DNA of 64,000 nucleotides. Source: Methylococcaceae bacterium. Lineage in GTDB: Bacteria > Pseudomonadota > Gammaproteobacteria > Methylococcales > Methylomonadaceae. This document shows, in pieces, positions 44,580 through 64,000 of this stretch. Where the stretch lies: assembly GCA_013140705.1 (NCBI GenBank), contig JABFSH010000067.1, positions 8,942 to 72,941 of the forward strand, written 5' to 3'. The position numbers and the translations under genes were made by a program. Every line of letters starts with the position of its first letter. Within the stretch, counting starts at the first letter, position 1. The notes beneath the pieces were generated by a model. The model did not search any database, was not told where the DNA came from, and saw nothing but the letters and a program-made list of their open reading frames with translations.

Positions 44580-44740
44580 GGTAAGTTCATTTTTGTATAA
44601 ATACTCACGCTTATCGTCACGTCTGGTAGGGTGCTGGTTCAACCTGAATTTTAAATACACGTTGTCTCGGTTATCAGGCGGGGTAGGCCGAGGCGTAACC
44701 CACTCGGATTCGCATCCGACTTAAAATCCTAGGAGAACAC

Positions 44741-45481
44741 ATGTCAGCAGTATCCATGCGTCAAATGCTTGAAGCGGGTGTCCATTTTGGACATCAAACC
44801 CGTTATTGGAACCCGAAAATGGCAAATTATTTGTTTGGCTCCCGTAACAAAATTCACATCATCAATTTGGAAAAAACGCTTCCTTTATTTAATGACGCAA
44901 TGAATTATCTGGGCCAGATGACAGCAAACAAAGGCAATATTTTGTTTGTTGGCACTAAAAAATCAGCACGCAAAGTAGTGGCGGAAGAAGCACAACGCTG
45001 CGGCATGCCTTACGTCAACCACCGTTGGCTCGGCGGTATGATGACCAATTTTAAAACCATCAAAAAATCCATCAACCGCCTAAAGGAATTGGAAGCCATG
45101 AAGGCTGATGGTACACTTTATCAACGCTTCGGCAAAAAAGAAGCATTGGGCATGGAGCGGGAACTGGAAAAGCTGGAACGGAGTCTGGGCGGCATCAAGG
45201 ACATGAAAGGTATTCCTGATGTCATTTTCGTACTCGATGTAGGCTACGAAAAAAATGCCATTAGCGAAGCAAAAAAATTAGGTATTCCTGTGGTTGGAAT
45301 CGTCGATTCCAATAACTCTCCAGAAAGAATCGACTACATCATTCCTGGAAATGATGACTCCATTCGAGCCGTCAAGTTGTATTGTGAAAGCGCGTCACAA
45401 GCAATACTGGATGCAAAGACCGCCGGTTTTGGCCTGTCTGCCAAAACAGATGATTTTGTTGAAGAAGCCCCGGCAGAGTGA
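44741..45481 (+). CDS. rpsB: 30S ribosomal protein S2
   Basis: The N-terminus [19 protein letters not shown] is unmistakable. AGGAG RBS. Confidence 0.97.
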
Positions 45482-50909: not shown

Positions 50910-52288
50910 CTGAATTAATCCATACCCTGTTTTACTTCATCGTTGCGATTGGAGTTCTTGTCTCGTTCCACGAGTTCGGTCATTTCTGGATAGCACGTCG
51001 ATCCGGAGTAAAAGTACTTCGATTTTCTGTCGGTTTTGGTAAAGTTTTATGGTCGTATCAAAAACGGCCGGAAACTACAGAGTATGTCATCTCCGCAATA
51101 CCATTGGGCGGCTACGTCAAAATGGTCGATGAACGGGAAGGCCATGTTGCTACTGAAGACTTGCCACATGCATTTAACCGTCAGTCTGTATGGATTCGCA
51201 CCGGCATAGTTGCAGCTGGCCCGATATTCAACCTTGTCCTCGCCTTCGCTCTATTCTGGAGCGTCCTGGTCATCGGCGAAACCGGAATAAAACCCATTTT
51301 AGGCCACGTCAAGGAGGGAACACTGGCTGCAACAGCTGATTTTTCTGAAGGTGACGAAATCATTGCTGTTAATAACAAGCCAACGCCTACCTGGAATGAA
51401 GCGTTAAGCGTCATTATTGGTACTGCAATTGACGATGGGCAAGCTATCAGCGTACAAGTGAAAACATTAACTGGCGAGGATAAATACAGAACCCTTTCCA
51501 TCAGCGAATCAGAAAGTCAGACGCCAGAAATACTTTACGAGCGTTTGGGGCTTAAACCCTGGTCTCCCAAACTAAAACCCGTCATTGGTCAAGTTTTACC
51601 TGATGGCGCGGCATTTTCTGCCGGTTTGAAAAAAGGTGACCTATTGATTAGCGCCGACAGTCATGACATTAACGACTGGATGCAATGGGTCGATTACGTT
51701 AAAAGTCATCCTGGCGTTATGATTAAAATCATCATCGAGCGTGATGGCGCAACAATTCCTCTGACGATTACCCCGACAAAAATAGAGTCTGAACAGAAAA
51801 CTGAAGGCAAAATCGGTGCTGCCGTTCTGATACCGGAAGACTTAGTAAAATCCGTCAGTGTAAAATATGCTTTATCACCACTTGCAGCTATTCCCGTTGC
51901 ATTTGAAACAACCTATTACTACTCGTTCACGACTGTGAAAATGATGGGCAAAATGCTCATCGGCAAGGCATCCGTTAAAAATTTGAGTGGCCCGATCAGT
52001 ATTGCAGAGTATGCCGGTCAATCTGCCAGCCTGGGATTAGTGCATTTTTTAAAATTTATGGCATTGATTAGTGTCAGCTTGGGTGTATTGAATCTATTAC
52101 CGATTCCCGTTTTGGATGGCGGCCACTTGCTGTTTTTTGCGATTGAAGGAATCAAAGGCAGCCCCGTTTCAGAAAAAATGCAGTTATTTTTCCAGCAAGT
52201 GGGTATAGCTCTACTCATGTCGCTCATGGTCATGGTCATTTTTATGGATATTGAAAAAAAGATTAATTCAATAACCGGCTGGTTTTAA
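50906..52288 (+). CDS. rseP: Site-2 protease RseP (sigma-E protease)
   Basis: HEFGHF zinc motif, two PDZ-like regions and a C-terminal LDGG motif. The TTG start overlaps the dxr stop. Confidence 0.93.
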
Positions 52289-52399
52289 TGAAAACCGATA
52301 AATATCACCTCTACCTGCCCTTTTTAATCGAAACCATTATTTCAACAATTTCATCAAATTTTGCCAAAAGCCAATTTAGTCTTCGGACTACTTGAGGGA

Positions 52400-52527
52400 A
52401 CCTCAAAAATTATCCGTTCATGCTTCGACAAGTTCAGTGCGAACTGATAAGTTACTGATTTAAGAAGATATCATCTCACATTTATGCCCTGTGGGTACTG
52501 ATCTTGTCGAAGTGTAATATTTAAAGG
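52400..52527. repeat. Dispersed intergenic repeat, copy B (about 128 nt, with intact internal inverted arms)
   Basis: It aligns with copy A at 19804-19925. The internal arms cttcgacaagttcagt (52429-52444) and actgatcttgtcgaag (52500-52515) are 15/16 complementary. Confidence 0.55.
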
Positions 52528-52801
52528 TATCCTTAAAACAAAGGCAGCGCAAAATGAAACGATTTTCTCAAGCTTGAAGTGTAACTTTCATTATTGACAT
52601 ATACTTACCGCGGAAATATTCAAGTTATTCCTATCGGCTATGATTATATTACCGGTGAAGTCAACAATCTTCCGCCAAGATTGACAGATACACGCCCTTC
52701 GGACTTGTTTCGATATTCTGCACAACCGAACAATCTGAAAAACTGACAATCAAATTAAAATAAACCAATTCAAATTTATTCAACTTCAAAATAGGTAACC
52801 C

Positions 52802-53524
52802 ATGAAAAAAAGTATAACTATTGCAGTACTTTTATTATCTGGAATGGCTTGGACAATGGCCAAGGCTGATGAAAGCACTGTTAAGAAAGCTCTAGCCACA
52901 GCCATGCCCACTGTGAAGATAGATTCAATAAAGCCATCTGAAATCAAAGGGCTTTATGAAGTCGGCATGGGCGCCAACATCTATTATGTATCCGAAGACG
53001 GTAAATACCTGCTTCAGGGCCGTCTAGTTGATCTAGCCACGAAAACTGATTTAACTGAAGCTAAATTGAGTGGCACTCGAAAGCTTGCTCTTGAAAATCT
53101 GGGCCAGGACAAGATGATTGTATTCAAACCCAAAATAGCCAAATATAAGGTATCGGTGTTCACAGACATTGATTGTGGCTATTGTCGTAAATTACATTCA
53201 GAGATTGACCAATACCTGGCGCAAGGCATCACCATTCAGTATTTGTTTTATCCCAGGGCCGGCAAAGGATCTGATTCATATAATAAAGCAGTCTCCGTCT
53301 GGTGTTCGGCCGACCGAAATGCGGCCTTAACTGCAGCTAAAAAAGATCAAAATCTGCCAGCCAAGACCTGTACCAATCCTGTCGATGAGCACATGCAACT
53401 GGGGGAAGAATTTGATGTTAAAGGAACACCCATGATTGTTACCGAAAAAGGGAATATCTTTCCTGGGTACCTACCTGCCAAACAATTAGTTGAGGCCTTG
53501 GAAAGTGAGAAATCCGTTCACTAA
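52802..53524 (+). CDS. dsbC: Periplasmic thiol:disulfide interchange protein (DsbC type)
   Basis: Signal peptide, dimerisation-domain-like N-terminus and a CGYC active site (DIDCGYCRKLH); 240 aa. Confidence 0.85.
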   Translation: MKKSITIAVLLLSGMAWTMAKADESTVKKALATAMPTVKIDSIKPSEIKGLYEVGMGANIYYVSEDGKYLLQGRLVDLATKTDLTEAKLSGTRKLALENLGQDKMIVFKPKIAKYKVSVFTDIDCGYCRKLHSEIDQYLAQGITIQYLFYPRAGKGSDSYNKAVSVWCSADRNAALTAAKKDQNLPAKTCTNPVDEHMQLGEEFDVKGTPMIVTEKGNIFPGYLPAKQLVEALESEKSVH

Positions 53525-53552: not shown

Positions 53553-53561
53553 GGCAAAGCC
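53553..53561. repeat. Left copy of the 9-bp target-site duplication GGCAAAGCC
   Basis: It is identical to 55052-55060 and directly abuts the left inverted repeat of the IS. Confidence 0.88.
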
Positions 53562-55051
53562 CTGTCTCTTGATCACATTTTAAATGAGGATTATTCTACA
53601 ACCACCTGATTAAAAATTAATTTTGTGGTTGTAATGATTTCGACAGACGAATATGAATGGTCACAGCAGCTATTTGGTGGAAGTGACTTGGGAGACACGA
53701 GGCGGACAGAGCGGTTAGTAGACGTTGCTGCGCGCATGGCTAGTCAGATGGGTCAGTCACTGGCGAAGAGTTGCGGGGGAGATCAGGCAGCCTTATTGGG
53801 CGGTTATCGACTGATGCGTAATGAGGCGGTCGAACCGGAGGCGATCCGCGACGGTGGCTTTGAGAGTGTGGCACAACAAGCACAAGCGCAGAGTTTGCTA
53901 TTGGCGGTGGAAGACTCAACCAGCATCAGCTATACGCATGCGGTAGCGACTGAACTGGGCCTCACTAGTAACAATCAGGATGCCAAGCGGAATGGATTTC
54001 TGGCGCATTCGGTATTATTGCTGGATGCGGTGAGCGAACACACCATTGGATTGATAGGGCAACAACATTGGTGCCGAGATCGTGCTGATTATGGCAAGAA
54101 GCACAGGCGCAAGCAGCGGGCCTATGAAGACAAAGAAAGTTATAAGTGGGAACAAGCCTCGGTGCAGATGGCAAAGCGACTGGGGTCTGCGATGCAACGG
54201 ACCATTTCAGTCTGTGACCGCGAATCGGACGTCTATGAATATCTGTTGTATAAGTGCGGGCATGATCAACGTTTTGTGGTGCGAGCACAGGTAGACCGGC
54301 GGATATTACACAACGATTGCAAGCTATTCGAAGCGCTGGCGTGCGATGCATCCGCCTTATGCTGTTATACCGTGCAGATTCCACAGCGTGGTGGGCGCAA
54401 AGCGCGCGAAGCAAAACTGTTGCTGCGCAGTGCGACAGTGGAGCTATTGGCACCGGCGGGTCGAACCGTGGCGCAGGGTTCGCTGAGTGTGAACGTGGTG
54501 CTGGCGGAAGAACTTGACGCGCCGGCGCAATCGGAGCCATTGCAGTGGGTATTGCTGACGACGGAGGCCGTCAGTAGCGCGGAAGAGGCGCGACAGGTAG
54601 TTCGCTACTACGAGCTGCGCTGGCGCATTGAGGACTATCACAAGGCGTGGAAGAGTGGCGTGGGCGTGGAGCGACAACGTTTTCAAACGGTGGAAAATCT
54701 GGAACGGATGCTGGTGATCACGGCTTTTCTGGCTGTGCGATTGCTACAGCTGAGAGAACACCTGGATGCTCCGACCGATGCACCTGAAACAACGTGTGAA
54801 ACGGTATTGAGCGAAGACGAATGGAAGGTACTGTGGGTTTCGACCGAGCACAACCAGCCACTACCCAAGATAGCACCCGCTGCACGCTGGGCATTTTACG
54901 CCATTGCAAAACTGGGCGGATTTACTGATACCAAGCGCACGGGGCGGCCGGGCTGGGACACTGTATGGCACGGTTGGTTTCGCTTGCGAGAACGTCTCGA
55001 CGGATATCAACTCAGCAAATCGGCGCTCACTGAGTTGTGATCAAGAGACAG
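53562..55051 (+). mobile_element. IS4-family insertion sequence of the IS50 (Tn5) type, 1490 bp
   Basis: The perfect 16-bp terminal inverted repeats are CTGTCTCTTGATCACA (53562-53577) and its complement (55036-55051). It has a 9-bp direct target duplication and a single Tn5-like transposase ORF. It looks visibly more GC-rich than the flanks. Confidence 0.93.
53634..55040 (+). CDS. IS4-family (Tn5/IS50-like) DDE transposase
   Basis: The N-terminus MISTDEYEWSQQLFGGSDLGDTRRTERLVDVAARMA parallels Tn5 Tnp. The YREK region reads YYELRWRIEDYHKAWKSG. The stop codon lies inside the right IR. The start is ATG 53634 or GTG 53625. Confidence 0.92.
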   Translation: MISTDEYEWSQQLFGGSDLGDTRRTERLVDVAARMASQMGQSLAKSCGGDQAALLGGYRLMRNEAVEPEAIRDGGFESVAQQAQAQSLLLAVEDSTSISYTHAVATELGLTSNNQDAKRNGFLAHSVLLLDAVSEHTIGLIGQQHWCRDRADYGKKHRRKQRAYEDKESYKWEQASVQMAKRLGSAMQRTISVCDRESDVYEYLLYKCGHDQRFVVRAQVDRRILHNDCKLFEALACDASALCCYTVQIPQRGGRKAREAKLLLRSATVELLAPAGRTVAQGSLSVNVVLAEELDAPAQSEPLQWVLLTTEAVSSAEEARQVVRYYELRWRIEDYHKAWKSGVGVERQRFQTVENLERMLVITAFLAVRLLQLREHLDAPTDAPETTCETVLSEDEWKVLWVSTEHNQPLPKIAPAARWAFYAIAKLGGFTDTKRTGRPGWDTVWHGWFRLRERLDGYQLSKSALTEL

Positions 55052-55060
55052 GGCAAAGCC
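55052..55060. repeat. Right copy of the 9-bp target-site duplication GGCAAAGCC
   Basis: It is identical to 53553-53561 and directly abuts the right inverted repeat. Confidence 0.88.
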
Positions 55061-55130: not shown

Positions 55131-55355
55131 CCACAAACGGAGTTGTTCATAACGCTCCTCTTCTTTTTCTTGCTCCCTGATATACGTTCGAACACTGCTG
55201 GTTTGTGCAAGTCTTGCAGCTCGCCCCCAAGACGCTAAGACTTGAGGCCTTGTATATCAATGATATGAGGTTGTTTATGGTGATAAAATGAACTCGGAAA
55301 CTTTAGTTTTGAACCTTTTTCGAAAAAATAGAATAAACTGTATATTTCCCTCTTT

Positions 55356-56549
55356 GTGATGTTTATGACCAATTCTTCTAGCACCATCACCTACAGAAAT
55401 AAGCCATCCGAAGCTCTTAAGATAGGTTATGTTCTCAAACGATTTCCTAACTTGTCCCAGACTTTTATACTTAATGAGATTCTGGAGATTGAACGCCAAG
55501 GTGTTTTAGTTGAAATCGTATCATTACGTACGCCCCGTTCAGAACCTACTCATAGCGCCTTGAAGAATCTAAAGGCGCAAATTACTTATTTGGATGAAAC
55601 GACAAAATCATCGGATTCTACAATAGCAGAACAAGTTGCACTTTGGGCAAAATCAAGACATTTGCAGCACTTACATGCTCATTTCGCCACCAGTGCTGCG
55701 GAAATTGCGATGCAATCAGCAAAACTGGCAAATATCGGTTATTCATTTACCGCACATGCGCATGATATTTACCATGAAAAGGTCGATCGACAGGCTTTAA
55801 TCAATCGTATACAAAATGCTCGATTCGTCGTCACGGTCAGTGATTTTAACCGAGACTATTTGAATAAACTGCAGAGCAATCAGTCTTATAAAGGCACCAT
55901 CAACAGACTATATAATGGTCTCGATCTTACGCTATTCAACCCAACCAAGTTGATTCGCGAACCTGGTCTCATAGTAAGTATCGGACGGTTAGTCCCTAAA
56001 AAAGGCATGAGCTTTTTGATAGAGGCATTTGCTTCATTGCGCGATCGTAACGTAACATTTCGTGCTGTCATTATTGGTGAAGGTGAAGAAAGAGTTACAT
56101 TAGAGAAGTCCATACAAAAGTTTGCCCTCGAACAGCAAGTTACTTTAGTTGGCGCTCTAACTCAATCCGATGTTATCGCAACCCTAAGTCGTGCCGAACT
56201 TTTTGCACTGTCTTGTATTGTTGGTGACGATGGGGATATGGATGGTTTGCCGACTGTTATTCTTGAAGCAATGGCGCTTGGTATTCCAGTTGTCTCAACG
56301 CAGCTTGCGGGAATACCAGAGATGATTCATCATCAAATTAATGGCTTGCTGGTGGACCAAAAGCAAGTGACTGACCTAGCCGATGCGATGCAGACATTGC
56401 TTGAATCAAACGAACTCAGGATTTCATTTCGCAATCAATCACTCAAGCATATGGAAGAACATTTCAATTTACGGAAAAATGTTGCCCAACTCAGAGAATG
56501 GTTTGCGGCGGCTAGCACTATAGGAATGGATAAGGAGTATACTGAATAA
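55356..56549 (+). CDS. GT4-family glycosyltransferase (WcaL-like)
   Basis: N-terminal IGYVLKRFPNLSQTFILNEI and the GT4 C-terminal motif GLPTVILEAMALGIPVVST. The start is GTG 55356 or one of the ATGs at 55359/55365. Confidence 0.85.
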   Translation: MMFMTNSSSTITYRNKPSEALKIGYVLKRFPNLSQTFILNEILEIERQGVLVEIVSLRTPRSEPTHSALKNLKAQITYLDETTKSSDSTIAEQVALWAKSRHLQHLHAHFATSAAEIAMQSAKLANIGYSFTAHAHDIYHEKVDRQALINRIQNARFVVTVSDFNRDYLNKLQSNQSYKGTINRLYNGLDLTLFNPTKLIREPGLIVSIGRLVPKKGMSFLIEAFASLRDRNVTFRAVIIGEGEERVTLEKSIQKFALEQQVTLVGALTQSDVIATLSRAELFALSCIVGDDGDMDGLPTVILEAMALGIPVVSTQLAGIPEMIHHQINGLLVDQKQVTDLADAMQTLLESNELRISFRNQSLKHMEEHFNLRKNVAQLREWFAAASTIGMDKEYTE

Positions 56550-58594
56550 TGGCGGTTAATTCGTTTCCTGGACAGGGTCAAAACAACCCCCTCAGTGAAT
56601 CCATAGCCGCTTTATCAGAAGCTGAACTAATCGTTTATTTTGCAAATCGTAGCCATGTTGTTTACCCTGATCTTCCCAAGGCAAGTGATGAACAACTTAA
56701 AAATGCAGCAGACATTCTGGCTAACCGATTTAGTTATACTGGAGAAACGTTTCAATTTGAACCGGTATTTTCCTGGAAACCCAATCCGAGTGCCGACAAG
56801 GAATGGCAAATCGCTTTTCATAAACACTATTTCCTAATTGATCTTATCCAGGCTTATCGGCATACCCGTGAGGTTGTTTATCTTGAAAAATGGAAACAAC
56901 TGATCCAGAGCTGGATCACAGAGATGGGTTCTGGATATATTACCCTGAGCGACGCCCAAGTTGAGGCAAAAAGGATGGAATCCTGGTGCATTGCTTTCAT
57001 GTTGTTAAAAGGCACCCAATGGCATGACCATATACCAGGATGCTTTTTACAACTGTTTCTTTCCCGGATCGCCGAGGAAACCCATTACATCAGCCAGCAC
57101 CTCAAGCCGGTACGAAATCACCGGACATTTCAACTCTACGCGATTTATTTGGTTGGTGTACTTTTTCCAGAATTAACTACACACTCTTCTTTTCTGGAAA
57201 CAGGCACAGATCTGCTGAGCAAAAATTTACTCACCGATTTTCAACGTGACGGCGTACACATCGAAATGTCTTCGCACTACCATCAATTAGTCGCAGAGAC
57301 GGGAATTCGCATGCTGGAATTGGCGGTCTTGAATAAGATATCACTGAATAATGAATTGGTTGACCGCTTACACAAAGCTGTCCGGTTTTCCTTATATTTA
57401 CAGTGGCCTAATGGTGACATTCCGCTTATCAACGATTCGGATAATGGCAATCATCTTGATCTGTTACGATTAGGCAGCCACTATTTTAATGATCCGGAAT
57501 TGCTTTGGGGAGCCACCTTGGGTGCAGATGGACGTGCGCCCGACCACACATCGTATTGTTTTACAGAATCCGGCTATTTTATCCTGAGCGATACCTGGGG
57601 ATCAGACAAAAAGAGCTATGCCCAGCGCCAACACGTTTTTTTTGATTGCGGGAATTTAGGCGAAGGCAGCCACAGTCATTACGATCTGTTTAATTTCTGC
57701 TATTTCTTGGGAGGACAACCTGCGATTATCGATCCAGGCCGCTATACATATTCCGGTGAGCCTGATACGAATGGTACTCTCTGGAGGCATTACTTCAAAG
57801 GCACGGCAGCTCATAACACCGTCACTATCGACCGACTCGATCAAACCCGTTATTTGAACCGCACAAAACACGGCCCGGACGTGCAATGGGTTGGCCGCGA
57901 ATATCTGCTTGGCCAAAAGAGCGACTGGGTTTTTGGACGTGCAGTAAGTGAAAATTACAGTCCGCAGCATGAACGCCTATTTGTTTACGTGGGACATGAG
58001 TATCTGTTTATCTTGGATAAATTGCATTCCGATGACCTTATTGATCATCACTACGAATTGAATTTTCACTTGCCTGCCGGAACTGAATCCAATTTGATTT
58101 CACAGGAAGGCCACTACCGTTTGGTTACCAATCAATGCGAAATCCGCGGGATAACTGAACTGGGTATGCACTGCCAAATAAAACCGGGATGGGTGTCGCA
58201 GTATTATGGTATTAAACATCAAGCCCCCATTTTGTCTGTTAACCAATCCGGTAGTGGGGATAAGATATTTACAACACTTGTAGCGCCATTGCCGAATGAT
58301 TCGTTAACCATAAACAGTATCAGTTGCGAGTCAGCGGGATCAAACAATCAAAGTTACAGCGTGGGTTTAATTAAACAGGATCAACATTATTACGATCGAT
58401 TTATCATCCCTGCTAGTGCAAACGAGCTTTATCAGCAGGAAGGATTGCATTTTCAGGGGAAATTCCTGGCTTACCGGGAAGATGGAGAAGGAAAAATTTT
58501 ATTTGTTACTGCCAAAGCTGCCAGCACTATTGTATTAAGGGGAAAGACAATTCATAACGACTCTGCAGGGAGCAATGTAGAATGGATACCGTAA
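56549..58594 (+). CDS. Heparinase II/III-like (polysaccharide lyase-fold) protein
   Basis: A 681-aa protein. DGVHIEMSSHYHQL and GSHSHYDLFNF resemble the heparinase II/III N- and C-domain signatures. Its ATG overlaps the upstream TAA by 1 nt. Confidence 0.75.
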   Translation: MAVNSFPGQGQNNPLSESIAALSEAELIVYFANRSHVVYPDLPKASDEQLKNAADILANRFSYTGETFQFEPVFSWKPNPSADKEWQIAFHKHYFLIDLIQAYRHTREVVYLEKWKQLIQSWITEMGSGYITLSDAQVEAKRMESWCIAFMLLKGTQWHDHIPGCFLQLFLSRIAEETHYISQHLKPVRNHRTFQLYAIYLVGVLFPELTTHSSFLETGTDLLSKNLLTDFQRDGVHIEMSSHYHQLVAETGIRMLELAVLNKISLNNELVDRLHKAVRFSLYLQWPNGDIPLINDSDNGNHLDLLRLGSHYFNDPELLWGATLGADGRAPDHTSYCFTESGYFILSDTWGSDKKSYAQRQHVFFDCGNLGEGSHSHYDLFNFCYFLGGQPAIIDPGRYTYSGEPDTNGTLWRHYFKGTAAHNTVTIDRLDQTRYLNRTKHGPDVQWVGREYLLGQKSDWVFGRAVSENYSPQHERLFVYVGHEYLFILDKLHSDDLIDHHYELNFHLPAGTESNLISQEGHYRLVTNQCEIRGITELGMHCQIKPGWVSQYYGIKHQAPILSVNQSGSGDKIFTTLVAPLPNDSLTINSISCESAGSNNQSYSVGLIKQDQHYYDRFIIPASANELYQQEGLHFQGKFLAYREDGEGKILFVTAKAASTIVLRGKTIHNDSAGSNVEWIP

Positions 58595-59802
58595 CCAAAC
58601 CATGTTCAAGCCTGGCGTTATTCAGCTTCCTTGGTTATTCTCACCCATTTTTTGCCCAAATCAGGGATTTTGAACAACGCATCCGTCAGTCGAATGCGTA
58701 TGCGATAATGAAGTCACTGCAAGCACAAGGTTTAACGACTAGCGTCCATGCAGAAATTAAATCTGTACTTTATGAGAATCGCAGACTATTAGACCGATTT
58801 TATTACTCGATTCAATTTCCAAATCCGGAATTGCCCGGAGGCTGGTACGGCTGGAGCCTGCATTATACCCGACAGGATGGCGTCCCGAAAGAGTATGAAT
58901 TTCCGCATGATCCAAAATTGGCTCATTTAGCCCGCTTTATTGATGCTCCGGAAAACAGAGAGATTAAGGTTCTTCGTTATGTTCCCTTGCGTAGAGTCAC
59001 CTTTATCAGACCAGGCCGCAATCTCTCGCCAGATCTTATCGGAAAGCTGAAGAAACCCAACAGAGCTCAGGAGGGTTATCGAAGATTAACTGATATTTCA
59101 GCTATTTGTTCAGGCTCCGACGTTACTGTCCCAAGTCCAGTAAGCTTGGACAGCGATCAAGCGATTTTTTACCAAACTCTAGTACCAGGAGAAGAAGTTA
59201 CTCATTTGTTAAACGACGAAAATTACCGGAAACTTATGGCAGATATTGGTAACTTGCATGGTGAGTTAGGAAAATGGCCCATTCCAGGGGACAAACGCTG
59301 GGATCGGGGTGGCATAAAAAAAAATCTCTCGATGGACTTAGACGAAATTGTATTTTACTTGCCGGAAAACACCGATTTTATAAATAAAATCGGACAATGG
59401 ATTAAGGAACGTCAAAACAAAGTCGTCACAGTTGCTGAAACATTTTGCCATGGGGATTTTGCCTGCTCTCAAATTTTACGTCATGACAGCGGCTGGTCGG
59501 TGGTCGACTTTGACCTCGCCGGCATGGGTGATCCTTACCAGGACATGGCAATGTTTATTACCTCACTAAGCCACGACGTCCCGTTATTTCAAGACCGTCC
59601 AGAACTACTAGCGACAGCAACGCAAGACTATTTAAAGTGCTATCAACAATCGACTGAAAAATTGATCGATACGGACTCGTTTATTTGGTATCGGGTTTGT
59701 GCAGAAATTTATTATCTAGCACTCATCTTGAAAAAGGACCGTTTTACTCCCCTAGCTTATCAACAAGCACATGATCGCATGTGCAAATTAACCCAAATTT
59801 GA
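58582..59802 (+). CDS. APH/eukaryotic-like-kinase-fold phosphotransferase (K1)
   Basis: Catalytic loop FCHGDFACSQIL and metal-binding VVDFDLAGMGDP. An FPHDPKL motif lies upstream. It overlaps the upstream gene by 13 nt. Confidence 0.75.
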   Translation: MDTVTKPCSSLALFSFLGYSHPFFAQIRDFEQRIRQSNAYAIMKSLQAQGLTTSVHAEIKSVLYENRRLLDRFYYSIQFPNPELPGGWYGWSLHYTRQDGVPKEYEFPHDPKLAHLARFIDAPENREIKVLRYVPLRRVTFIRPGRNLSPDLIGKLKKPNRAQEGYRRLTDISAICSGSDVTVPSPVSLDSDQAIFYQTLVPGEEVTHLLNDENYRKLMADIGNLHGELGKWPIPGDKRWDRGGIKKNLSMDLDEIVFYLPENTDFINKIGQWIKERQNKVVTVAETFCHGDFACSQILRHDSGWSVVDFDLAGMGDPYQDMAMFITSLSHDVPLFQDRPELLATATQDYLKCYQQSTEKLIDTDSFIWYRVCAEIYYLALILKKDRFTPLAYQQAHDRMCKLTQI

Positions 59803-59807
59803 ATGAT

Positions 59808-60869
59808 ATGACTGATAAACCGAAACGCTTTCTATTTAATGCCCACAACCGAAGGGGGCTGGGTCATTTGATGCGCGGCCTAAACATCGCTCGGGAAATA
59901 CGTAACATCTCAAATGATGCCGACATCCTGTTTTATACCCGGAGCGAGTCAGCGACCGAACTTTGTGGAGATCAGTTCGACTATTTTATTGAAGAAGACC
60001 TCGAGCATAACCAGCATTGGGCGAGTGTCATCGACCATTTCCAACCCGATGTCGTCATTTACGATACCTTGTTGCCCAAAGAGGCTGTTGACACCCCGCC
60101 ATGTCCGGGTCGAACCGCCTATATCATGAGAAAATGCAAACCGGATCGTCAGCAAGAAATATTTAATCATCCCTTCTTAGCATCGATTGATCTCATTCTT
60201 ATTCCTCATGAGCCGGTTGAATTCGGCTATAGCCTGCCAGACGCCCATATTACAAAAGCAACTTTTGTCGGCCCTATTATCCGTCATGCCGAAACTCAGC
60301 CTCAACAAATGTTGCGTGACAAATACAAGCTTCAGCCTGGAGAGTTTTTACTGACCTCGACTGTCGGCGGTGGTGGGTTTGAAGATAAAGCGCTAGCTTT
60401 CTTTGCAACAATTTTCGAGATTCATCAACAAATTCATACAAAAATTCCAAAACTAAGGCATTTAGTTATCAAAGGCCCCAACTTTACAAATTCTCTACCG
60501 CAATTGGAAGGTATTGAAATTATTGATAGTGAAACTGAAATGGTCAATTTACTGGCCATTTCAAACCTGGTCATTGCCGAAGGTGGATATAACACCGTTA
60601 ACGAAATTCGTTTAGCGAAAACTCCGGCAATCTTCCTGCCAAGTGAGCGCAACTATGATGACCAGCGTGAACGGGTATTAGAACTCAAGGACAAAGGGTT
60701 AGCCTTCGTTTACACTCAGAATGATGGCAATTTGATTGCCGAACAGATAGTCAAACTGTTTTCTGATAAAACCCTACTAACTAATTTGCGGCATCGTTAC
60801 GCGAACGATTCTATCCTGACAGGTAACAGAGCTGCCGCACAGAAACTTGTTGCATTGGCCTCAATATGA
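59808..60869 (+). CDS. GT-B glycosyltransferase, GT28/MurG-like C-terminal domain (COG4671-like)
   Basis: The N-terminus reads FLFNAHNRRGLGHLMRGLNIAREI and the C-terminal region reads AEGGYNTVNEIRLAKTPAIFLP. ATG 59808 is preferred to the alternative start at 59781. Confidence 0.7.
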   Translation: MTDKPKRFLFNAHNRRGLGHLMRGLNIAREIRNISNDADILFYTRSESATELCGDQFDYFIEEDLEHNQHWASVIDHFQPDVVIYDTLLPKEAVDTPPCPGRTAYIMRKCKPDRQQEIFNHPFLASIDLILIPHEPVEFGYSLPDAHITKATFVGPIIRHAETQPQQMLRDKYKLQPGEFLLTSTVGGGGFEDKALAFFATIFEIHQQIHTKIPKLRHLVIKGPNFTNSLPQLEGIEIIDSETEMVNLLAISNLVIAEGGYNTVNEIRLAKTPAIFLPSERNYDDQRERVLELKDKGLAFVYTQNDGNLIAEQIVKLFSDKTLLTNLRHRYANDSILTGNRAAAQKLVALASI

Positions 60870-61807
60870 TTGCCAGCATTGAAGCAGGTGCCGAATCCTT
60901 GTTCCAACACATGGCTTCAAGTCCTGATTGGCAGTGGGAATCTAAAATACTCAGTGAAACGCCTGGCCATCGACTGGTTACGCATTACCTTATTAGAACC
61001 ACCAATGAAAAACACCGTTCGAATATCATTGAGACGGTGGGAAAGTTTTACGAAGATGATGCTATGGGAGTACATTGCTATAATACCATGTGTGCGATAC
61101 ACGGGTTGTTAGCAACTAGGGTGAATCCCCCACTGGCCATACCTGAACCGATTTTTTATTCCCCTGATAATAAATTGCTAACACTGAAATGGGTTGACCA
61201 TCGACCTTATTCTGAATTAATTAATAGCCGATATTACAAACACTACCTTCGTTTGGTCGGTAAAGCACTCGCGTATTTTCATCATCTTCCAATGGAATAC
61301 GGGCAATTCAAAAACATTGATGATCATCTGCGTGAATTGATCATGCCGCATCCCCTAGCCCTAGCTGAATTACTTCCAAGGCAAGCAATAAGGATACAAA
61401 GGATTGTTCATAGACTTTGCGAAATAGAACAACGACTTGTGCAACATACTATTTCAGTACCGATTCATAGAGATTTCCATCTAAGACAGTTGTTTTGCGA
61501 TGGCCGAAAAGTCTGGTTAATTGATTGGGATATGTATGGCTTGGGTGATCCCGCATTGGATGTCGGAAATTTTCTGGTTTATTTGGCTACGCGGATACCG
61601 GCTAAATCAAAATCTGCTGGAGCAGCATTTTTAGAAGGTTATCAGTCACTAATGCCGAATGTTAGTGAAGCCAATATTAGACTTTATGAAGCTTTAACCT
61701 ATCTTAGGTTGGCTTGCAAAGCGTATCGGCTTCAACTTCAAGATTGGGAGATACGTGCCGAAGAATACTTAACTCAATCAGAAAACAAATTGCTAATGGA
61801 GAATTAG
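60866..61807 (+). CDS. APH-fold phosphotransferase (K2)
   Basis: Catalytic loop IHRDFHLRQLF and metal-binding LIDWDMYGLGDPALD. ATGA overlap with the upstream gene. Confidence 0.75.
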   Translation: MIASIEAGAESLFQHMASSPDWQWESKILSETPGHRLVTHYLIRTTNEKHRSNIIETVGKFYEDDAMGVHCYNTMCAIHGLLATRVNPPLAIPEPIFYSPDNKLLTLKWVDHRPYSELINSRYYKHYLRLVGKALAYFHHLPMEYGQFKNIDDHLRELIMPHPLALAELLPRQAIRIQRIVHRLCEIEQRLVQHTISVPIHRDFHLRQLFCDGRKVWLIDWDMYGLGDPALDVGNFLVYLATRIPAKSKSAGAAFLEGYQSLMPNVSEANIRLYEALTYLRLACKAYRLQLQDWEIRAEEYLTQSENKLLMEN

Positions 61808-61812
61808 GAGCG

Positions 61813-62979
61813 ATGAAACCGAGAATCGCCCATGTGATTAATAGCTTTGGCTTGGGCGGAGTGCCTCAGGTTGCTTATCAGATGATGAGATCTTTGCCCA
61901 ATGATACCTACGAATTATATCTATATGTGTTGAAAAGTTACCCTGACAATGGAGCAGTTAGGCAACAATTGAGCGACTACTTCCGGAATATGGGTGTAAT
62001 CGTTCGGTGCCCAGACCGCGACGAAAAGAAATTTTATGTTGTCAGTCAACTTTGTCACTGGATTAAGGATGATTGCATAAACATAGTCCATACGCATTCA
62101 TATAAGCCAAATATTTATGGACGTCTGGCTGCGACAATGTGTCGATTTCAAGGGCTTAAAACCGTGGCGCATTATCACAATTTTTACGAAAATAAATGGA
62201 TCGAGGACGATAGCATAGTTTATGAGCAGTTTCTTGCCAGGACAACGGATTGCTTTCTTGCCTGCTCAGGTTCCGTGGCAAAGCATGCAGCGGAAAAAAT
62301 TGGCTTATCTACGGATTCATTCGAAGTTATCTTGAATGGAATTGATCTTGACCGGTTCAAAATCAGAACTGACCGGGCTGCAATCAAATCATCGCTGTGC
62401 ATACCTGAAGATTTCAATGTTGTGGGTATTGTCGGCCGAATTTCCCAACAAAAAGCACAGGATATCTTTCTTGAAGCTGCGGCAAAAATACACCAAAGAT
62501 CACCTCAAACCTTATTCCTCATAGTGGGTGCCGCTGACGAACCAGCGATATTAGACAAGATGATGGCCTTAATGGTGTCTTTGGGGCTTCAAGAGAAAGT
62601 CAGGTTTCTTGGTTACAGAGATGATATACCCAGCATTTACAGCATCATCGATATTTTGGTCATGCCTTCACGCTGGGAAGGTTTTGGTCTTGCTCTGGTA
62701 GAAGCGATGGCCATGGGACTGCCAATTGTTTGTAGCGAAGTGGGTGGTATACCTGAAGTCGTCATTCCGAATGAAACGGCGCTTTTTGTTGAGACTGAAA
62801 GCCCTGGGCAGGTCGCCGATGCTCTAACAAGATTGCTTGAAGATCAATCATTACGCTTTAAAATGGGGCAGGCCGGCAAAAAGCGCGCCGAGCAATTTTC
62901 ATATCAGCGTATCGGCCTGCAAGTCCACCAAAAATATCAACAACTTCTGTACGGTCATAAAGAGGAAAAGCGGATATGA
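61813..62979 (+). CDS. GT4-family glycosyltransferase
   Basis: It begins MKPRIAHVINSFGLGGVPQ after AGGAG and carries the GT4 motif EGFGLALVEAMAMGLPIVCSEVGGIPEVV. The track start at 61714 would overlap K2 by 94 nt. Confidence 0.88.
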   Translation: MKPRIAHVINSFGLGGVPQVAYQMMRSLPNDTYELYLYVLKSYPDNGAVRQQLSDYFRNMGVIVRCPDRDEKKFYVVSQLCHWIKDDCINIVHTHSYKPNIYGRLAATMCRFQGLKTVAHYHNFYENKWIEDDSIVYEQFLARTTDCFLACSGSVAKHAAEKIGLSTDSFEVILNGIDLDRFKIRTDRAAIKSSLCIPEDFNVVGIVGRISQQKAQDIFLEAAAKIHQRSPQTLFLIVGAADEPAILDKMMALMVSLGLQEKVRFLGYRDDIPSIYSIIDILVMPSRWEGFGLALVEAMAMGLPIVCSEVGGIPEVVIPNETALFVETESPGQVADALTRLLEDQSLRFKMGQAGKKRAEQFSYQRIGLQVHQKYQQLLYGHKEEKRI

Positions 62980-63605
62980 CGATAGGCCGTATTTATCTTA
63001 TTCGTCACGGGCAGACTTCGGGCAATGGCAACCAGTACGTCGGCTGGGATGACTTGCCATTGAATGAGACGGGAATACAGCAAGCCCATCAAATCGCCGC
63101 ACTGCTTGAAACCTTCCCAATTTCAGAAATTTACAGTAGCCCGTTGATGCGTGCAATCGAAACAGCGCGACCACTTTGCGAGTCAAAAGGGTTGAAAATA
63201 ATGCACCACGATGAGCTTAAGGAAATCAACTATGGAGAATTTCAAGGCCGATTAAAGTCCGAACTGAACCTCAAATTAAGGAAACAAAATCGCTACGAAC
63301 CACTGCCCGATGGTGAAAGTTTGAATGATGTATATCAGCGGGTTAGGCGATTTAAGGACAGTATAGCTAGTTCACTTATAGGATATAAGCCTATCGCAAT
63401 TATTGCCCATTTCTGGAGTATCCGATTGTTCTTAGGGGTTCTACAAGAACTGGACTTTGAATCAATTTTTGTCTCTGGTGGCTATAAGCCAGGAAATGGC
63501 ACAATTTATGAAATTACTTACCAATATGACCAGTGGGGTAATTTTGATTTTATATCGAAGGGTTATCTTAATTGCACAACATTAAATTCAGAGACAGTCT
63601 TATGA
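62976..63605 (+). CDS. Histidine phosphatase superfamily (phosphoglycerate-mutase-like) protein
   Basis: RHG motif (IYLIRHGQTSGN) and a second His region (IIAHFWSIR); 209 aa. ATGA overlap with the upstream GT4. Confidence 0.85.
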   Translation: MTIGRIYLIRHGQTSGNGNQYVGWDDLPLNETGIQQAHQIAALLETFPISEIYSSPLMRAIETARPLCESKGLKIMHHDELKEINYGEFQGRLKSELNLKLRKQNRYEPLPDGESLNDVYQRVRRFKDSIASSLIGYKPIAIIAHFWSIRLFLGVLQELDFESIFVSGGYKPGNGTIYEITYQYDQWGNFDFISKGYLNCTTLNSETVL

Positions 63606-64000
63606 ACCTCGCTTGGCATAGAAATCAACCAGAACCACACAATAAAACCAGCAATATTGTAAAATCAACCTCTCCAATACCCGCTCATTGGGCACAAACT
63701 GTTCTGGAACGTTTCAGCCAACCGGATGAGTTAGCGAAAGAAATCAGGTTGGCATTTCATGACAAGTTGTTAGCCGAGCAATTTGAGATATTCGATATCC
63801 AACATGTTCCAGGGCGCCTACTTAAAGTTTTGGGGCGCTTTTTATCGAATGCTGATAAACACGCATTCACTATCGTTCAAGTAAATTTCTATTCAGAAAC
63901 CGACATAACACCGGCATTCACCAAAGCCATGGATGAGGCAATCGATAGTAGCCGTATCGCACGAATTGAATCTTGGAATGCCATTGTCCGCATTTTTCCG
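63602..64000 (+). CDS. Partial ORF (133 codons, open to the window end), probably a third APH-fold kinase paralog (K3)
   Basis: Own translation gives MNLAWHRNQPEPHNK...VQVNFYSETDITPAF...ESWNAIVRIFP with no stop. It has an ATGA overlap with the phosphatase gene. Its end, RIFP, resembles the FPHDP motif of K1. Only the pre-catalytic region is visible. Confidence 0.5.
   Translation, partial: MNLAWHRNQPEPHNKTSNIVKSTSPIPAHWAQTVLERFSQPDELAKEIRLAFHDKLLAEQFEIFDIQHVPGRLLKVLGRFLSNADKHAFTIVQVNFYSETDITPAFTKAMDEAIDSSRIARIESWNAIVRIFP

What the first reader, a model, noticed from the sequence alone, without database searches (positions are those of the whole stretch)
55356..64000. Translationally coupled cluster alternating glycosyltransferases with three APH-fold kinases, plus a heparinase-like protein and a histidine phosphatase
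Gene order is GT4, heparinase II/III-like, kinase K1, GT28-like transferase, kinase K2, GT4, histidine phosphatase, kinase-like K3 (cut by the window end).

Almost every junction is coupled: TAATG at 56547-56551, a 13-nt overlap at 58582-58594, ATGA at 60866, a 5-nt gap at 61808-61812, ATGA at 62976 and ATGA at 63602. That argues for one operon with stoichiometric products.

K1 and K2 keep the catalytic HxD and D(F/W)D motifs, so they look active.

The visible part has no GT9 heptosyltransferase, no Wzx/Wzy or ABC exporter and no nucleotide-sugar genes. It therefore does not read as a standard LPS-core or O-antigen/capsule locus.

Pairing three transferases with three kinases and a phosphatase suggests stepwise assembly of a multiply phosphorylated oligosaccharide. 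An alternative is a phosphorylate/dephosphorylate cycle on a glycoside, as in aminoglycoside producers.

The cluster lies just past a synteny break and an IS, which fits accessory status.
Basis: partly seen in the sequence, partly recalled or inferred. Interest (0 to 1): 0.8.

Follow-up and report, generated by a model that had tools for sequence, protein, structure and literature searches.

The report
Conserved sugar-kinase/glycosyltransferase export cassette
This is a real, tightly packed operon of sugar-adding enzymes, sugar kinases, a lyase-like enzyme and a phosphatase; the same cassette, ending in an export pump, recurs in distantly related bacteria, and it most likely makes and exports a still unknown phosphorylated sugar compound rather than part of the lipopolysaccharide.

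Summary
Eight co-directional genes (GT4, PL12/heparinase-III-like, APH kinase K1, GT-B "GT28_C" transferase, kinase K2, GT4, histidine phosphatase, kinase K3) sit at the stated coordinates with the stated overlaps.

The block is a rare cassette found in very different genomic contexts. The same gene set, mostly in the same order, occurs in Methylococcaceae, Nitrotoga, Azoarcus, Dechloromonas, Leptothrix/Sphaerotilus mobilis, Alphaproteobacteria, Nitrospirota and filamentous Chloroflexota.

In relatives the operon continues past K3 into an ABCB-type exporter. It also carries a fourth GT1/GT28-like transferase and either an AlgE-like porin or MacAB-TolC-like genes.

- All window proteins lack predicted signal peptides and membrane helices.
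- The kinase and lyase-type catalytic residues are invariant across orthologues.
- K1 and K2 carry the Mak/glucosamine-kinase loop (D-x-x-x-x-Q, DFD/DWD).
- The second GT4 is closest to MshA, sucrose-phosphate synthase, BshA and GlgM.
- The "GT28" model is closest to GT1 natural-product transferases.
- K1-GT4b-phosphatase also occurs as a stand-alone three-gene module.
- Alphaproteobacteria fuse the GT28-like transferase to a kinase.

Best reading: cytoplasmic, carrier-independent assembly and export of a small anionic oligosaccharide or glycoside that is phosphorylated and probably contains a uronate. LPS-core, RiPP, catabolic and defence readings are not supported. The product is unknown.

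The parts
55260..55289 (+). Candidate sigma-70-like promoter upstream of the first gene (ATGATA-18-TAAAAT with TG). This is a weak consensus match only.
   Evidence: Promoter-like sites in the region are not more frequent than in shuffles, so this is only a candidate.
55356..56549 (+). GT4a: a GT-B family 4 glycosyltransferase of the EpsE/WcaL/TuaC-like type. The alternative start is ATG 55365.
   Evidence: Pfam Glycos_transf_1 1.8e-38. NCBIfam best hits are EpsE, WcaL and TuaC, all below their cut-offs. Orthologues are 37-67% identical in relatives. No TM helix or signal peptide.
56549..58594 (+). HEP: a heparinase-III (PL12)-like protein that is predicted to be cytoplasmic and keeps the lyase-type Asn/Tyr/His residues.
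   Evidence: Pfam Hepar_II_III_N and Hepar_II_III_C. PDB heparinase III entries 5jmd, 4fnv and 4mmh match at E 6e-25 to 1e-16. N190-H191-R192, H243-Y244-H245, H375 and H422-N423 are invariant in 13 orthologues. None of the orthologues has a signal peptide.
58582..59802 (+). K1: an APH-fold kinase with a roughly 130-aa N-terminal cap. Its catalytic loop is CHGDFACSQ and its metal loop is DFD, which is Mak/GlcN-kinase-like.
   Evidence: Pfam APH 1.4e-14. The AF2 model has pLDDT 91. Foldseek top hits are small-molecule kinases: corramycin, APH(3'), APH(2'') and PsiK. The family profile hits GlcN kinase 6hwj at 1e-5 and maltokinases at 1e-4 to 3e-3. K155, H290, D292, Q297, D309 and D311 are invariant in 22 sequences.
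59808..60869 (+). GT28-like GT-B transferase, structurally GT1-like. The alternative start is GTG 59781.
   Evidence: Pfam Glyco_tran_28_C 1.7e-10. The protein is 50-83% identical across phyla. The AF2 model has pLDDT 91. Foldseek top hits are GT1 natural-product transferases (kitacinnamycin GT, OleD, CalG1/3, YojK, SpnP), and MurG is not in the top 50. In Alphaproteobacteria it is fused to an APH kinase.
60866..61807 (+). K2: a short APH-fold kinase with the loop HRDFHLRQ (D-x-H-x-x-Q) and IDWD.
   Evidence: Pfam APH 2.2e-13. H201, R202, D203, H205, D220 and D222 are invariant and Q208 is conserved in 12 of 13 sequences. The LxmK hit scores only 50 bits against a cut-off of 315.
61813..62979 (+). 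GT4b: a GT4 transferase of the MshA/SPS/BshA/GlgM-like branch, whose members take small anionic or phosphorylated acceptors.
   Evidence: Pfam hits. NCBIfam best hits are stp2, MshA and BshA, all below their cut-offs. PDB hits: MshA 3c48 at 1e-29, SPS 6kih at 2e-25, BshA, and GlgM 6tvp at 3e-18.
62976..63605 (+). HP: a histidine phosphatase (branch 1) that is predicted to be cytoplasmic.
   Evidence: Pfam His_Phos_1 7e-41. The nearest relatives are the CobC, PspA and dPGM types. It follows GT4b in most loci that have GT4b.
63602..64000 (+). K3 N-terminal 133 codons, cut by the window end. It belongs to a roughly 450-aa APH(+TCAD9) kinase family.
   Evidence: tblastn gives 47% identity to residues 1-132 of K3 in L004. 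L002 extends the sequence by 51 aa into the FPxDxxLP and SYxxGxRCA motifs. The family keeps HGDxHxxN and D-x-D.

Best explanation
The block is the 5' two-thirds of a conserved cassette of about 12-14 kb. The cassette builds a small, soluble, anionic oligosaccharide or glycoside in the cytoplasm and then exports it.

Proposed order of events (inferred):
1. A Mak/GlcN-kinase-like APH kinase (K1 type) phosphorylates a small hydroxylated primer, such as a sugar, cyclitol or sugar acid.
2. GT4b, a relative of MshA, sucrose-phosphate synthase, BshA and GlgM, glycosylates the phosphorylated primer.
3. The histidine phosphatase removes the handle. These three genes also exist as a stand-alone module.
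4. The GT1-like 'GT28' transferase, GT4a and (outside this window) a fourth GT1/GT28-like transferase extend the glycoside from common nucleotide sugars.
5. K2, fused to the GT28-like enzyme in Alphaproteobacteria, and K3 phosphorylate the growing product.
6. The cytoplasmic PL12-like enzyme, with its catalytic Asn/Tyr/His set intact, tailors a uronic acid residue by C5 proton abstraction (epimerisation or 4,5-elimination).
7. An ABCB-type exporter carries the product over the inner membrane. An AlgE-like porin or a MacAB-TolC-like set carries it over the outer membrane.

Shown here: gene content, conservation, catalytic residues, predicted cytoplasmic location, the exporter in relatives, the gene fusion and the sub-module.

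Inferred: substrate identities, the order of steps and the nature of the product.
For: - **Gene set and coupling:**
- **Conservation of the cassette:** Gamma-, Beta- and Alphaproteobacteria, Nitrospirota and Chloroflexota, with different flanks in each genome.
- **Exporter in relatives:** an ABC_membrane+ABC_tran exporter lies in the cluster in most relatives, directly after K3 in the Methylococcaceae-type loci, and is 53-63% identical between phyla. It is nearest to the MsbA-related, HepA and glucan-exporter families, with no equivalog.
- **Outer-membrane components:** MFP-MacB-OEP genes sit inside the cluster in Betaproteobacteria. An orthologous AlgE-like porin is adjacent in two phyla.
- **Location:** no signal peptide or TM helix in any window protein.
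- **Kinases:** catalytic residues are invariant. The K1 profile hits GlcN kinase and maltokinases, and K1 and K2 share the Q-containing catalytic loop and the DFD loop described for that family (PMC6520443). The K1 fold is nearest to small-molecule kinases.
- **GT4b:** nearest to MshA, SPS, BshA and GlgM.
- **GT28 model:** nearest to GT1 small-molecule transferases.
- **Sub-module:** K1-GT4b-HP occurs alone, among unrelated genes, in L019 and L025. Variants lacking GT4b and HP also exist.
- **Fusion:** a GT28-like::kinase fusion in Alphaproteobacteria.
- **HEP:** keeps the residues aligned with the heparinase III catalytic positions.
Against: - No product, substrate or phenotype is known, and no paper was found.
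- Nearest-neighbour arguments for GT-B enzymes and APH kinases are weak predictors of substrate. Foldseek TM-scores are only about 0.45-0.69, and all NCBIfam hits are far below their equivalog cut-offs.
- No UDP-glucose dehydrogenase or other uronate-forming gene lies in or beside the cluster, so the uronate rests on HEP alone.
- ABCB exporters also flip lipid-linked glycans (PglK, MsbA) and export polymers (HepA). AlgE-type porins are known for polymers. A polymer or lipid-anchored product is therefore not excluded.
- The exporter, the porin and the fourth transferase are not visible for this genome itself.
Confidence: 0.45

Rival explanations
1. The cassette makes a cell-surface or secreted acidic polysaccharide (an EPS or capsule-like polymer). 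The polymer would be made processively by the transferases, phosphorylated by the kinases, trimmed or epimerised by the PL12-like enzyme as in alginate biosynthesis, and exported by the ABC transporter plus an AlgE-like porin.
For: - GT4a's best family hits are the EPS or teichuronic-acid transferases EpsE, WcaL and TuaC.
- The exporter resembles HepA and glucan exporters.
- An AlgE-like porin is adjacent in two phyla.
- A lyase gene inside a biosynthetic cluster is a feature of alginate-type systems (established knowledge).
Against: - No priming phosphoglycosyl transferase, no Wzx/Wzy/Wzc/Wza, no KpsMT/KpsSC and no synthase-type GT2 appear in any of eight annotated loci.
- HEP lacks a signal peptide, unlike AlgL or the heparinases.
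- GT4b and the GT28-like enzyme are nearest to small-acceptor enzymes.
- MacAB-TolC-type pumps in the betaproteobacterial versions suit small molecules.
- The K1-GT4b-HP stand-alone module points to a soluble primer.
Confidence: 0.25
2. The kinases are anomeric sugar kinases (like Mak, NahK and MtnK). They would make sugar-1-phosphates that the adjacent GT-B enzymes use directly as donors, so each kinase-transferase pair is a nucleotide-independent glycosylation module.
For: - Kinases and transferases alternate in the operon.
- A GT28-like::kinase fusion exists.
- There are no nucleotide-sugar genes.
- K1 and K2 share catalytic-loop features with Mak and GlcN kinase.
- GT4b resembles GlgM, which handles Glc-1-P as an acceptor.
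Against: - GT4 and GT1/GT28 enzymes almost always use nucleotide sugars (established knowledge).
- The GlcN-kinase relative phosphorylates O6, not the anomeric position (PMC6520443).
- The sugar-binding signature of Mak/GlcNK is not recognisable in K1.
- The phosphatase then has no obvious role.
Confidence: 0.1
3. The cassette is an LPS inner-core glycosylation and phosphorylation locus of the WaaG/WaaP/WaaY type, with an MsbA-like flippase.
For: GT4 enzymes combined with kinases and an MsbA-related exporter superficially resemble core assembly.
Against: - The kinases hit APH (PF01636), not the Kdo/WaaP family. There is no GT9.
- The complete cassette, with 50-63% identical proteins, occurs in Kouleothrix, Roseiflexaceae and Oscillochloris. 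By established knowledge these Chloroflexota lack LPS.
- The flanks are never LPS genes.
Confidence: 0.03
4. The cassette modifies a ribosomal peptide (a RiPP). The APH-type kinases and a lyase would dehydrate Ser/Thr, the transferases would glycosylate the peptide, and the ABC transporter would export it.
For: - K2's best NCBIfam hit is the class V lanthionine kinase LxmK.
- TvaE, a RiPP kinase homologue, is among the K1 fold hits.
- A Peptidase_S8 gene lies upstream in Chloroflexota.
Against: - The LxmK hit scores 50 bits against a cut-off of 315.
- No short ORF is conserved across loci of different clades within or beside the clusters.
- The lyase is a polysaccharide-lyase fold with uronate-type catalytic residues.
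- The S8 gene is absent outside Chloroflexota.
Confidence: 0.03
5. The cassette is either a catabolic locus for a glycosaminoglycan- or alginate-like polymer, or an anti-phage/conflict system.
For: - A heparinase-like gene is present.
- There are weak Pfam labels 'GT4-conflict' and 'TCAD9'.
Against: - HEP is predicted cytoplasmic. There is no binding-protein importer, no glycoside hydrolase and no uronate catabolic gene. The transporter is an exporter type.
- No PADLOC model matches any enzyme.
- The conflict-family labels reflect general GT4 and kinase-fold similarity.
Confidence: 0.03

Closest known systems
Phosphorylated-acceptor glycoside pathways: MshA + phosphatase (mycothiol), sucrose-phosphate synthase/phosphatase, GpgS/GpgP, and GlgM
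   Same: A GT4 enzyme whose nearest solved relatives are MshA, SPS, BshA and GlgM sits directly before a phosphatase. With a kinase it forms a stand-alone three-gene module.
   Different: Those pathways take their phosphorylated acceptor from central metabolism or a dedicated synthase, not from an APH-fold kinase. GT4b is far below the MshA and BshA equivalog cut-offs. Here the module is embedded in a larger assembly-and-export operon.
Mak (maltokinase) / actinobacterial glucosamine kinase family of the GlgE pathway
   Same: It is an APH-type fold with an N-terminal cap. The catalytic loop has Gln in place of the usual Asn, and there is a DFD metal loop.
   Different: The profile E-values are only 1e-5 to 3e-3. 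The D-x-H sugar-binding His is absent in K1 (D-F-A). The GlcNK signature Q-x2-RE-x2-YA-x3-LP-x-W is not recognisable. Foldseek does not place Mak among the top 50. There is no GlgE or TreS nearby.
Heparinase III (PL12) and lyases or epimerases inside acidic-polysaccharide biosynthesis systems (for example AlgL/AlgG/AlgE of alginate)
   Same: It has both Hepar_II_III domains and conserved Asn/Tyr/His positions. It is encoded inside a biosynthetic operon, and an AlgE-like porin is adjacent in two lineages.
   Different: There is no signal peptide, so it is predicted to be cytoplasmic. There is no Alg8/Alg44-type synthase. PL12 enzymes are known as degradative and secreted or periplasmic.
LPS inner-core assembly (WaaG GT4, WaaP/WaaY kinases, MsbA)
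   Same: Glycosylation and phosphorylation steps alternate, and the exporter is MsbA-related.
   Different: The kinase family is different. There are no heptosyltransferases. The cassette is present in LPS-less Chloroflexota, and its genomic position is mobile.
Streptomycin-type export of a phosphorylated intermediate (an APH kinase, ABCB-type exporters StrV/W, phosphatase StrK); stated from memory
   Same: An APH-fold kinase, a phosphatase and an ABCB-type exporter occur in one cluster.
   Different: There are no cyclitol, aminotransferase or deoxysugar genes. The phosphatase here is a cytoplasmic histidine phosphatase, not a secreted alkaline-phosphatase-type enzyme.

Membership tests
LPS core glycosylation/phosphorylation locus (Waa) | Kinases of the Kdo/WaaP family (PF06293) and GT9 heptosyltransferases | tested here: not met
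   The Pfam and NCBIfam scans give APH (PF01636) only and no GT9.
LPS core glycosylation/phosphorylation locus (Waa) | Restricted to LPS-containing bacteria | tested here: not met
   The complete cassette is present in Kouleothrix, Roseiflexaceae and Oscillochloris. That these lack LPS is established knowledge and was not tested here.
Wzx/Wzy- or ABC-2 (KpsMT/Wzm-Wzt)-dependent polysaccharide locus | Priming phosphoglycosyl transferase, flippase/polymerase or ABC-2 transporter, and PCP/OPX proteins | tested here: not met
   None of these is seen in the window. None appears in the Pfam-annotated neighbourhoods of eight relatives, where the transporter is ABC_membrane+ABC_tran.
Heparinase III / PL12 | Hepar_II_III_N and Hepar_II_III_C domains above the Pfam thresholds | tested here: met
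   The scores are 125.9 and 95.5 bits. PDB heparinase III entries match at E 6e-25.
Heparinase III / PL12 | Conserved catalytic Asn, Tyr and His | tested here: met
   NHR(190-192), HYH(243-245), H375 and HN(422-423) align with conserved positions of 5jmd, 4fnv and 4mmh and are invariant in 13 orthologues. Which residues are catalytic in heparinase III is recalled from the literature and was not re-read here.
Heparinase III / PL12 | Secreted or periplasmic enzyme that degrades heparan sulfate | tested here: not met
   No N-terminal signal peptide is present in any orthologue. Enzyme activity is not testable with these tools.
Mak / GlcN kinase family | Catalytic loop with Gln as metal ligand, plus a DFD loop | tested here: met
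   K1 has HGDFACSQ...DFD and K2 has HRDFHLRQ...DWD. The features are as described in PMC6520443.
Mak / GlcN kinase family | Sugar-binding D-x-H and the helix alpha12 signature (Q-x2-RE-x2-YA-x3-LP-x-W for GlcNK), and significant full-length similarity | tested here: not met
   K1 has D-F-A. No such signature appears in the K1 consensus. The profile hits cover only about residues 218-361 at E 1e-5 to 3e-3. Mak is absent from the top Foldseek hits.
MshA / BshA equivalogs | Score above the NCBIfam equivalog cut-off | tested here: not met
   For GT4b, MshA scores 142 bits against 462.5 and BshA scores 124 bits against 273.7.
MurG (GT28) | Closest structural and sequence relative is MurG, with a lipid-linked acceptor | tested here: not met
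   TIGR01133 scores 47.5 bits against a cut-off of 250. The Foldseek top 50 are GT1 small-molecule transferases. The acceptor is not testable.
Class V lanthipeptide (LxmK-type) or other RiPP cluster | A precursor peptide gene and kinase equivalogs | tested here: not met
   No short ORF is conserved across clades. LxmK scores 50 bits against a cut-off of 315.
Known anti-phage defence systems | A match to PADLOC models | tested here: not met
   No enzyme has a hit. Only the generic ABC ATPase domain of the exporter matches.

The most novel reading that the evidence does not exclude
The cassette makes a so far undescribed class of small exported 'phosphoglycoside'.

The oligosaccharide would be built in the cytoplasm without a lipid carrier and without dedicated nucleotide-sugar genes. 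Paired transferase-kinase modules, physically fused in Alphaproteobacteria, would do the assembly. A cytoplasmic polysaccharide-lyase-fold enzyme would serve as a biosynthetic tailoring step, either C5-epimerisation or elimination of a 4-O-substituent (possibly a kinase-installed phosphate) to give an unsaturated uronate.

Such a molecule could act as a signal, a metal ligand or an antibiotic in freshwater and biofilter communities.
Probability: 0.3. Interest if true: 0.8.

Novelty: new variant of a known kind. Interest (0 to 1): 0.6.

Why it matters
If the model holds, this would be a new route to phosphorylated glycans: soluble, independent of a lipid carrier, with kinases interleaved with the transferases. 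It would also be the first biosynthetic role for a cytoplasmic PL12-type enzyme.

The cassette is rare: about 300 K1-family representatives among 1.8 billion protein clusters. It nevertheless spans at least three phyla. Carriers include Leptothrix/Sphaerotilus mobilis DSM 10617 (a cultured isolate) and Ca. Manganitrophus noduliformans, which I recall from the literature as growing in co-culture. The hypothesis is therefore directly testable.

It also shows that the 'aminoglycoside phosphotransferase family protein' annotation of these genes is misleading. They are unlikely to be resistance genes.

Tried and rejected
- **Extending the contig.** Exact-protein look-ups found only short Logan contigs. 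L001 is 8.7 kb, starts next to the IS and ends inside K3. L002 adds 154 nt. The 75-kb NCBI contig was not retrievable.
- **Homologue search with the 133-aa K3 fragment.** It found nothing. K3 was assigned by tblastn with orthologues instead.
- **Literature.** Five searches, on TCAD9, heparinase+APH+GT combinations and the Sphaerotilus sheath, gave no description of this cluster.
- **A link to sheath formation.** This was considered because several carriers are filamentous or sheathed, then dropped. Many carriers are not sheathed, and the Leptothrix/Sphaerotilus paper names other genes.
- **A recalled fact that failed.** I remembered the Bermanella glucuronyl C5-epimerase as heparinase II/III-like. 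PMC3068255 does not support this: it lists the enzyme among putative prokaryotic D-glucuronyl C5-epimerases and never mentions heparinase or lyase. The point is not used.
- **RiPP reading.** There is no conserved short ORF.
- **Defence reading.** There is no PADLOC hit.
- **Maltokinase membership for K1.** Only the loop-level resemblance holds.
- **Gene calling in high-GC loci L019 and L025.** GC3-based greedy calling was unreliable inside the module. Only the clear flanking genes were scanned.
- **Composition.** The cluster's G+C (0.43-0.45) does not differ from the rest of the window, so composition gives no evidence of recent transfer.

Full report
**1. What is in the sequence**

Eight co-directional ORFs fill 55356-64000. 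Pfam assigns them as follows:

| Gene | Window coordinates | Pfam assignment |
|---|---|---|
| GT4a | 55356-56549 | Glycos_transf_1 |
| HEP | 56549-58594 | Hepar_II_III_N + Hepar_II_III_C |
| K1 | 58582-59802 | APH |
| GT28 | 59808-60869 | Glyco_tran_28_C |
| K2 | 60866-61807 | APH |
| GT4b | 61813-62979 | Glycos_transf_1 / Glyco_transf_4 |
| HP | 62976-63605 | His_Phos_1 |
| K3 | 63602 to window end | none on the 133 visible residues |

- The K1/GT28 junction is either a 5-nt gap (ATG 59808, as an independent gene call has it) or a 22-nt overlap (GTG 59781).
- Promoter-like and terminator-like matches inside the block are no more frequent than in shuffled sequence. One operon is therefore plausible, although not shown.
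- None of the proteins has a signal peptide or a hydrophobic stretch typical of a membrane helix.
- The truncated last ORF is 47% identical to the first 132 residues of a 454-aa APH-family protein at the same position in a relative. A 100%-identical metagenomic contig extends it by 51 residues into motifs conserved in that family.

**2. Surroundings**

- Upstream lie uppS-cdsA-dxr-rseP and dsbC, then a Tn5/IS50-like IS4-family element.
- Its ends (CTGTCTCTTGATCACA) are at 53562 and 55051. A perfect 9-bp direct repeat, GGCAAAGCC, flanks it.
- Removing the IS and one repeat copy rebuilds a G+C-rich hairpin with a T-rich tail just after dsbC.
- The IS is therefore a simple, probably recent insertion into the dsbC terminator. 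It is not the seam at which the cluster arrived.
- G+C content does not set the cluster apart from the rest of the window.

**3. The same cassette elsewhere**

K1 is 100% identical to a protein of a Methylococcaceae MAG. Look-ups of K1 and GT28 homologues and a scan of GTDB species representatives returned more than 20 loci. I classified their ORFs by BLAST against the window and three annotated relatives.

Carriers include:
- Gammaproteobacteria: other Methylococcaceae.
- Betaproteobacteria: Candidatus Nitrotoga, Dechloromonas, Azoarcus, other Burkholderiales, and Sphaerotilus (Leptothrix) mobilis DSM 10617.
- Alphaproteobacteria: Alsobacter and Hyphomicrobiaceae.
- Nitrospirota: including the Candidatus Manganitrophus noduliformans assembly.
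- Filamentous Chloroflexota: Kouleothrix, Roseiflexaceae and Oscillochloris.

Orthologues are 35-83% identical across these groups. The GT28-like enzyme and the exporter stay at 50-63% between phyla.

The flanks differ in every genome: modABC, ClpA/isocitrate lyase, a ribosomal protein operon, DnaK/GrpE, an opp transporter. This is the real evidence for accessory, horizontally spread status.

The K1 family is small. A full HMMER scan of 1.84 billion cluster representatives gave 301 proteins at E <= 1e-30.

**4. What the relatives add**

- **Exporter.** In the close relatives L004, L028 and L010 the operon runs on from K3 into a fused ABC_membrane+ABC_tran exporter. The exporter is also in the cluster in most other phyla. 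Ca. Manganitrophus (L032) shows none in the locus. It scores best against MsbA-related, HepA and glucan-exporter models but reaches no equivalog cut-off.
- **Fourth transferase.** A GT1/GT28-like transferase of about 400-450 aa belongs to the set.
- **Outer-membrane components.** Betaproteobacterial versions carry MFP-MacB-OEP genes inside the cluster and a second K1 paralogue. An AlgE-like porin lies next to the cluster in the Methylococcaceae relative and in Manganitrophus. The two are 33% identical over their full length (E 3e-79), whereas another Alginate_exp gene in the same relative is unrelated.
- **Modularity.** Kouleothrix and a JGI variant lack GT4b and the phosphatase. An Ectothiorhodospiraceae and an actinomycete MAG have only K1-GT4b-phosphatase, flanked by unrelated housekeeping genes.
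- **Fusion.** In Alphaproteobacteria the GT28-like enzyme and an APH kinase (loop HGDLHAGQ...IDLD) are one 640-646-aa protein.
- **What is missing.** None of the eight Pfam-annotated neighbourhoods has a priming transferase, Wzx/Wzy, an ABC-2 transporter, GT9 or nucleotide-sugar genes.

**5. The individual enzymes**

*HEP.* It matches solved heparinase III structures at E 6e-25 to 1e-16. The positions NHR 190-192, HYH 243-245, H375 and HN 422-423 are invariant in 13 orthologues. No orthologue has a signal peptide. The protein thus looks able to abstract the C5 proton of a uronate, but in the cytoplasm.

*K1.* It folds with high confidence (pLDDT 91). Its nearest structures are small-molecule kinases: corramycin, aminoglycoside and 4-hydroxytryptamine kinases. 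TM-scores are only 0.4-0.65. A K1-family profile hits an APH, then actinobacterial glucosamine kinase (1e-5) and maltokinases (1e-4 to 3e-3).

*K1 and K2 loops.* Both have Gln where APH enzymes usually have Asn, plus a DFD/DWD loop. The glucosamine-kinase paper describes exactly these metal ligands (PMC6520443). The sugar-binding signatures of that family are not present, so this is a resemblance and not membership.

*K3.* The family has the canonical HGDxHxxN/D-x-D. It hits aminoglycoside, methylthioribose and hygromycin kinases weakly.

*GT4b.* Its nearest solved relatives are MshA (1e-29), a sucrose-phosphate synthase, BshA and GlgM. These are GT4 enzymes that act on small phosphorylated or carboxylated acceptors.

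*GT28-like enzyme.* The model has pLDDT 91. Its nearest structures are GT1 natural-product transferases, and MurG is not among the top 50.

*HP.* It is a generic branch-1 histidine phosphatase.

**6. Interpretation**

The evidence fits a cytoplasmic assembly line for a small anionic glycoside or oligosaccharide that is then pumped out.
- The stand-alone K1-GT4b-phosphatase module and the affinities of GT4b suggest that the pathway starts by phosphorylating a primer, glycosylating it and removing the phosphate.
- The transferase-kinase fusion shows that at least one kinase works on the same molecule as a transferase.
- HEP implies a uronate. The exporter, MacAB-TolC-like genes and AlgE-like porin imply export.

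Substrates, order of steps and product are inferred. I give this reading about 0.45.

The main rival is an exported acidic polymer (0.25). It cannot be excluded because ABCB exporters and AlgE-type porins also serve polymers. However, it lacks every usual polymer-assembly component.

A donor-kinase scheme, with sugar-1-phosphates used directly by the transferases, is a minority possibility (0.1).

The following readings are each contradicted by a test:
- **LPS core:** wrong kinase family, no GT9, and presence in Chloroflexota.
- **RiPP:** no conserved short ORF, and the LxmK score is far below its cut-off.
- **Catabolism:** an exporter-type transporter, a cytoplasmic lyase and no hydrolases.
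- **Defence:** no PADLOC hit.

**7. Novelty and verdict**

All parts belong to known superfamilies, and the general kind (a glycan or glycoside biosynthesis-export cluster) is known. I found no description in the searchable literature of the combination seen here:
- three to four APH-type sugar kinases interleaved or fused with GT-B transferases;
- a cytoplasmic PL12-type enzyme;
- a histidine phosphatase;
- an ABCB-type exporter;
- no lipid-carrier or nucleotide-sugar genes.

It does not pass the membership tests of the systems it resembles. I rate it a new variant of a known kind, with interest 0.6.

Noticed in passing
window 53553-55060: A Tn5/IS50-like IS4-family element spans 53562-55051, with the transposase at 53625-55040. 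It has 9-bp target duplications GGCAAAGCC and is inserted in the predicted terminator hairpin of dsbC. An independent assembly (L001) breaks at window 55157, about 100 nt past the IS end, which suggests the IS is multi-copy in that genome.
   Followed up: yes
L004 18240-19682 (-) and L032 15439-16746 (+): An orthologous AlgE-like (Alginate_exp) outer-membrane porin lies directly beside the cassette in a Methylococcaceae relative and in Ca. Manganitrophus noduliformans (33% identity, E 3e-79). In L032 it is followed by a GGDEF-EAL protein.
   Followed up: partly
L032, L022, L010: Three carriers are tied to manganese oxidation: Ca. Manganitrophus noduliformans, Leptothrix/Sphaerotilus mobilis DSM 10617, and a MAG labelled 'Mn-Methylococcaceae' (the Mn link of the first two is from memory). 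This may be a sampling effect of biofilter and groundwater metagenomes.
   Followed up: no
L008 1334-2659, L015 2823-4190, L016 2986-4296: A Peptidase_S8 gene (51-52% identical) is conserved immediately upstream of the cassette in all three Chloroflexota loci. It is absent from the proteobacterial loci.
   Followed up: partly
L030 17834-19774 and L018 3386-5308 (-): Natural fusion proteins of 640-646 aa join a GT28-like transferase to an APH kinase. The K1-profile search also lists 790-940-aa proteins that match the kinase profile in two stretches (not examined further).
   Followed up: partly
window 32927-34441: The protein combines a CBM21 starch-binding module with an endonuclease/exonuclease/phosphatase domain. 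It sits directly after glgB (28909-31344) and glgA (31363-32796) and may be a glucan-associated phosphatase.
   Followed up: no
window 36184-36981: A short (265-aa) ORF carries only partial secretin domains. It lies between a PLD-like gene and the glycolate oxidase genes glcDEF, in the stretch with the highest G+C of the window (0.50-0.52).
   Followed up: no
window 44586-44699: A t44 RNA (Rfam RF00127, 56 bits) lies in the gap between the map gene and the next ORF (44741-45481). It is the only Rfam match in the window.
   Followed up: no
window 52288-52802: In many Gammaproteobacteria bamA follows rseP (from memory). Here the next ORF after rseP is dsbC, so the usual rseP-bamA neighbourhood seems interrupted independently of the IS.
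   Followed up: no
L004 4612-6407: The close relative has two extra genes upstream of GT4a that are not found in other loci: a homoserine-kinase-like APH protein (349 aa) and a class I methyltransferase (230 aa).
   Followed up: partly
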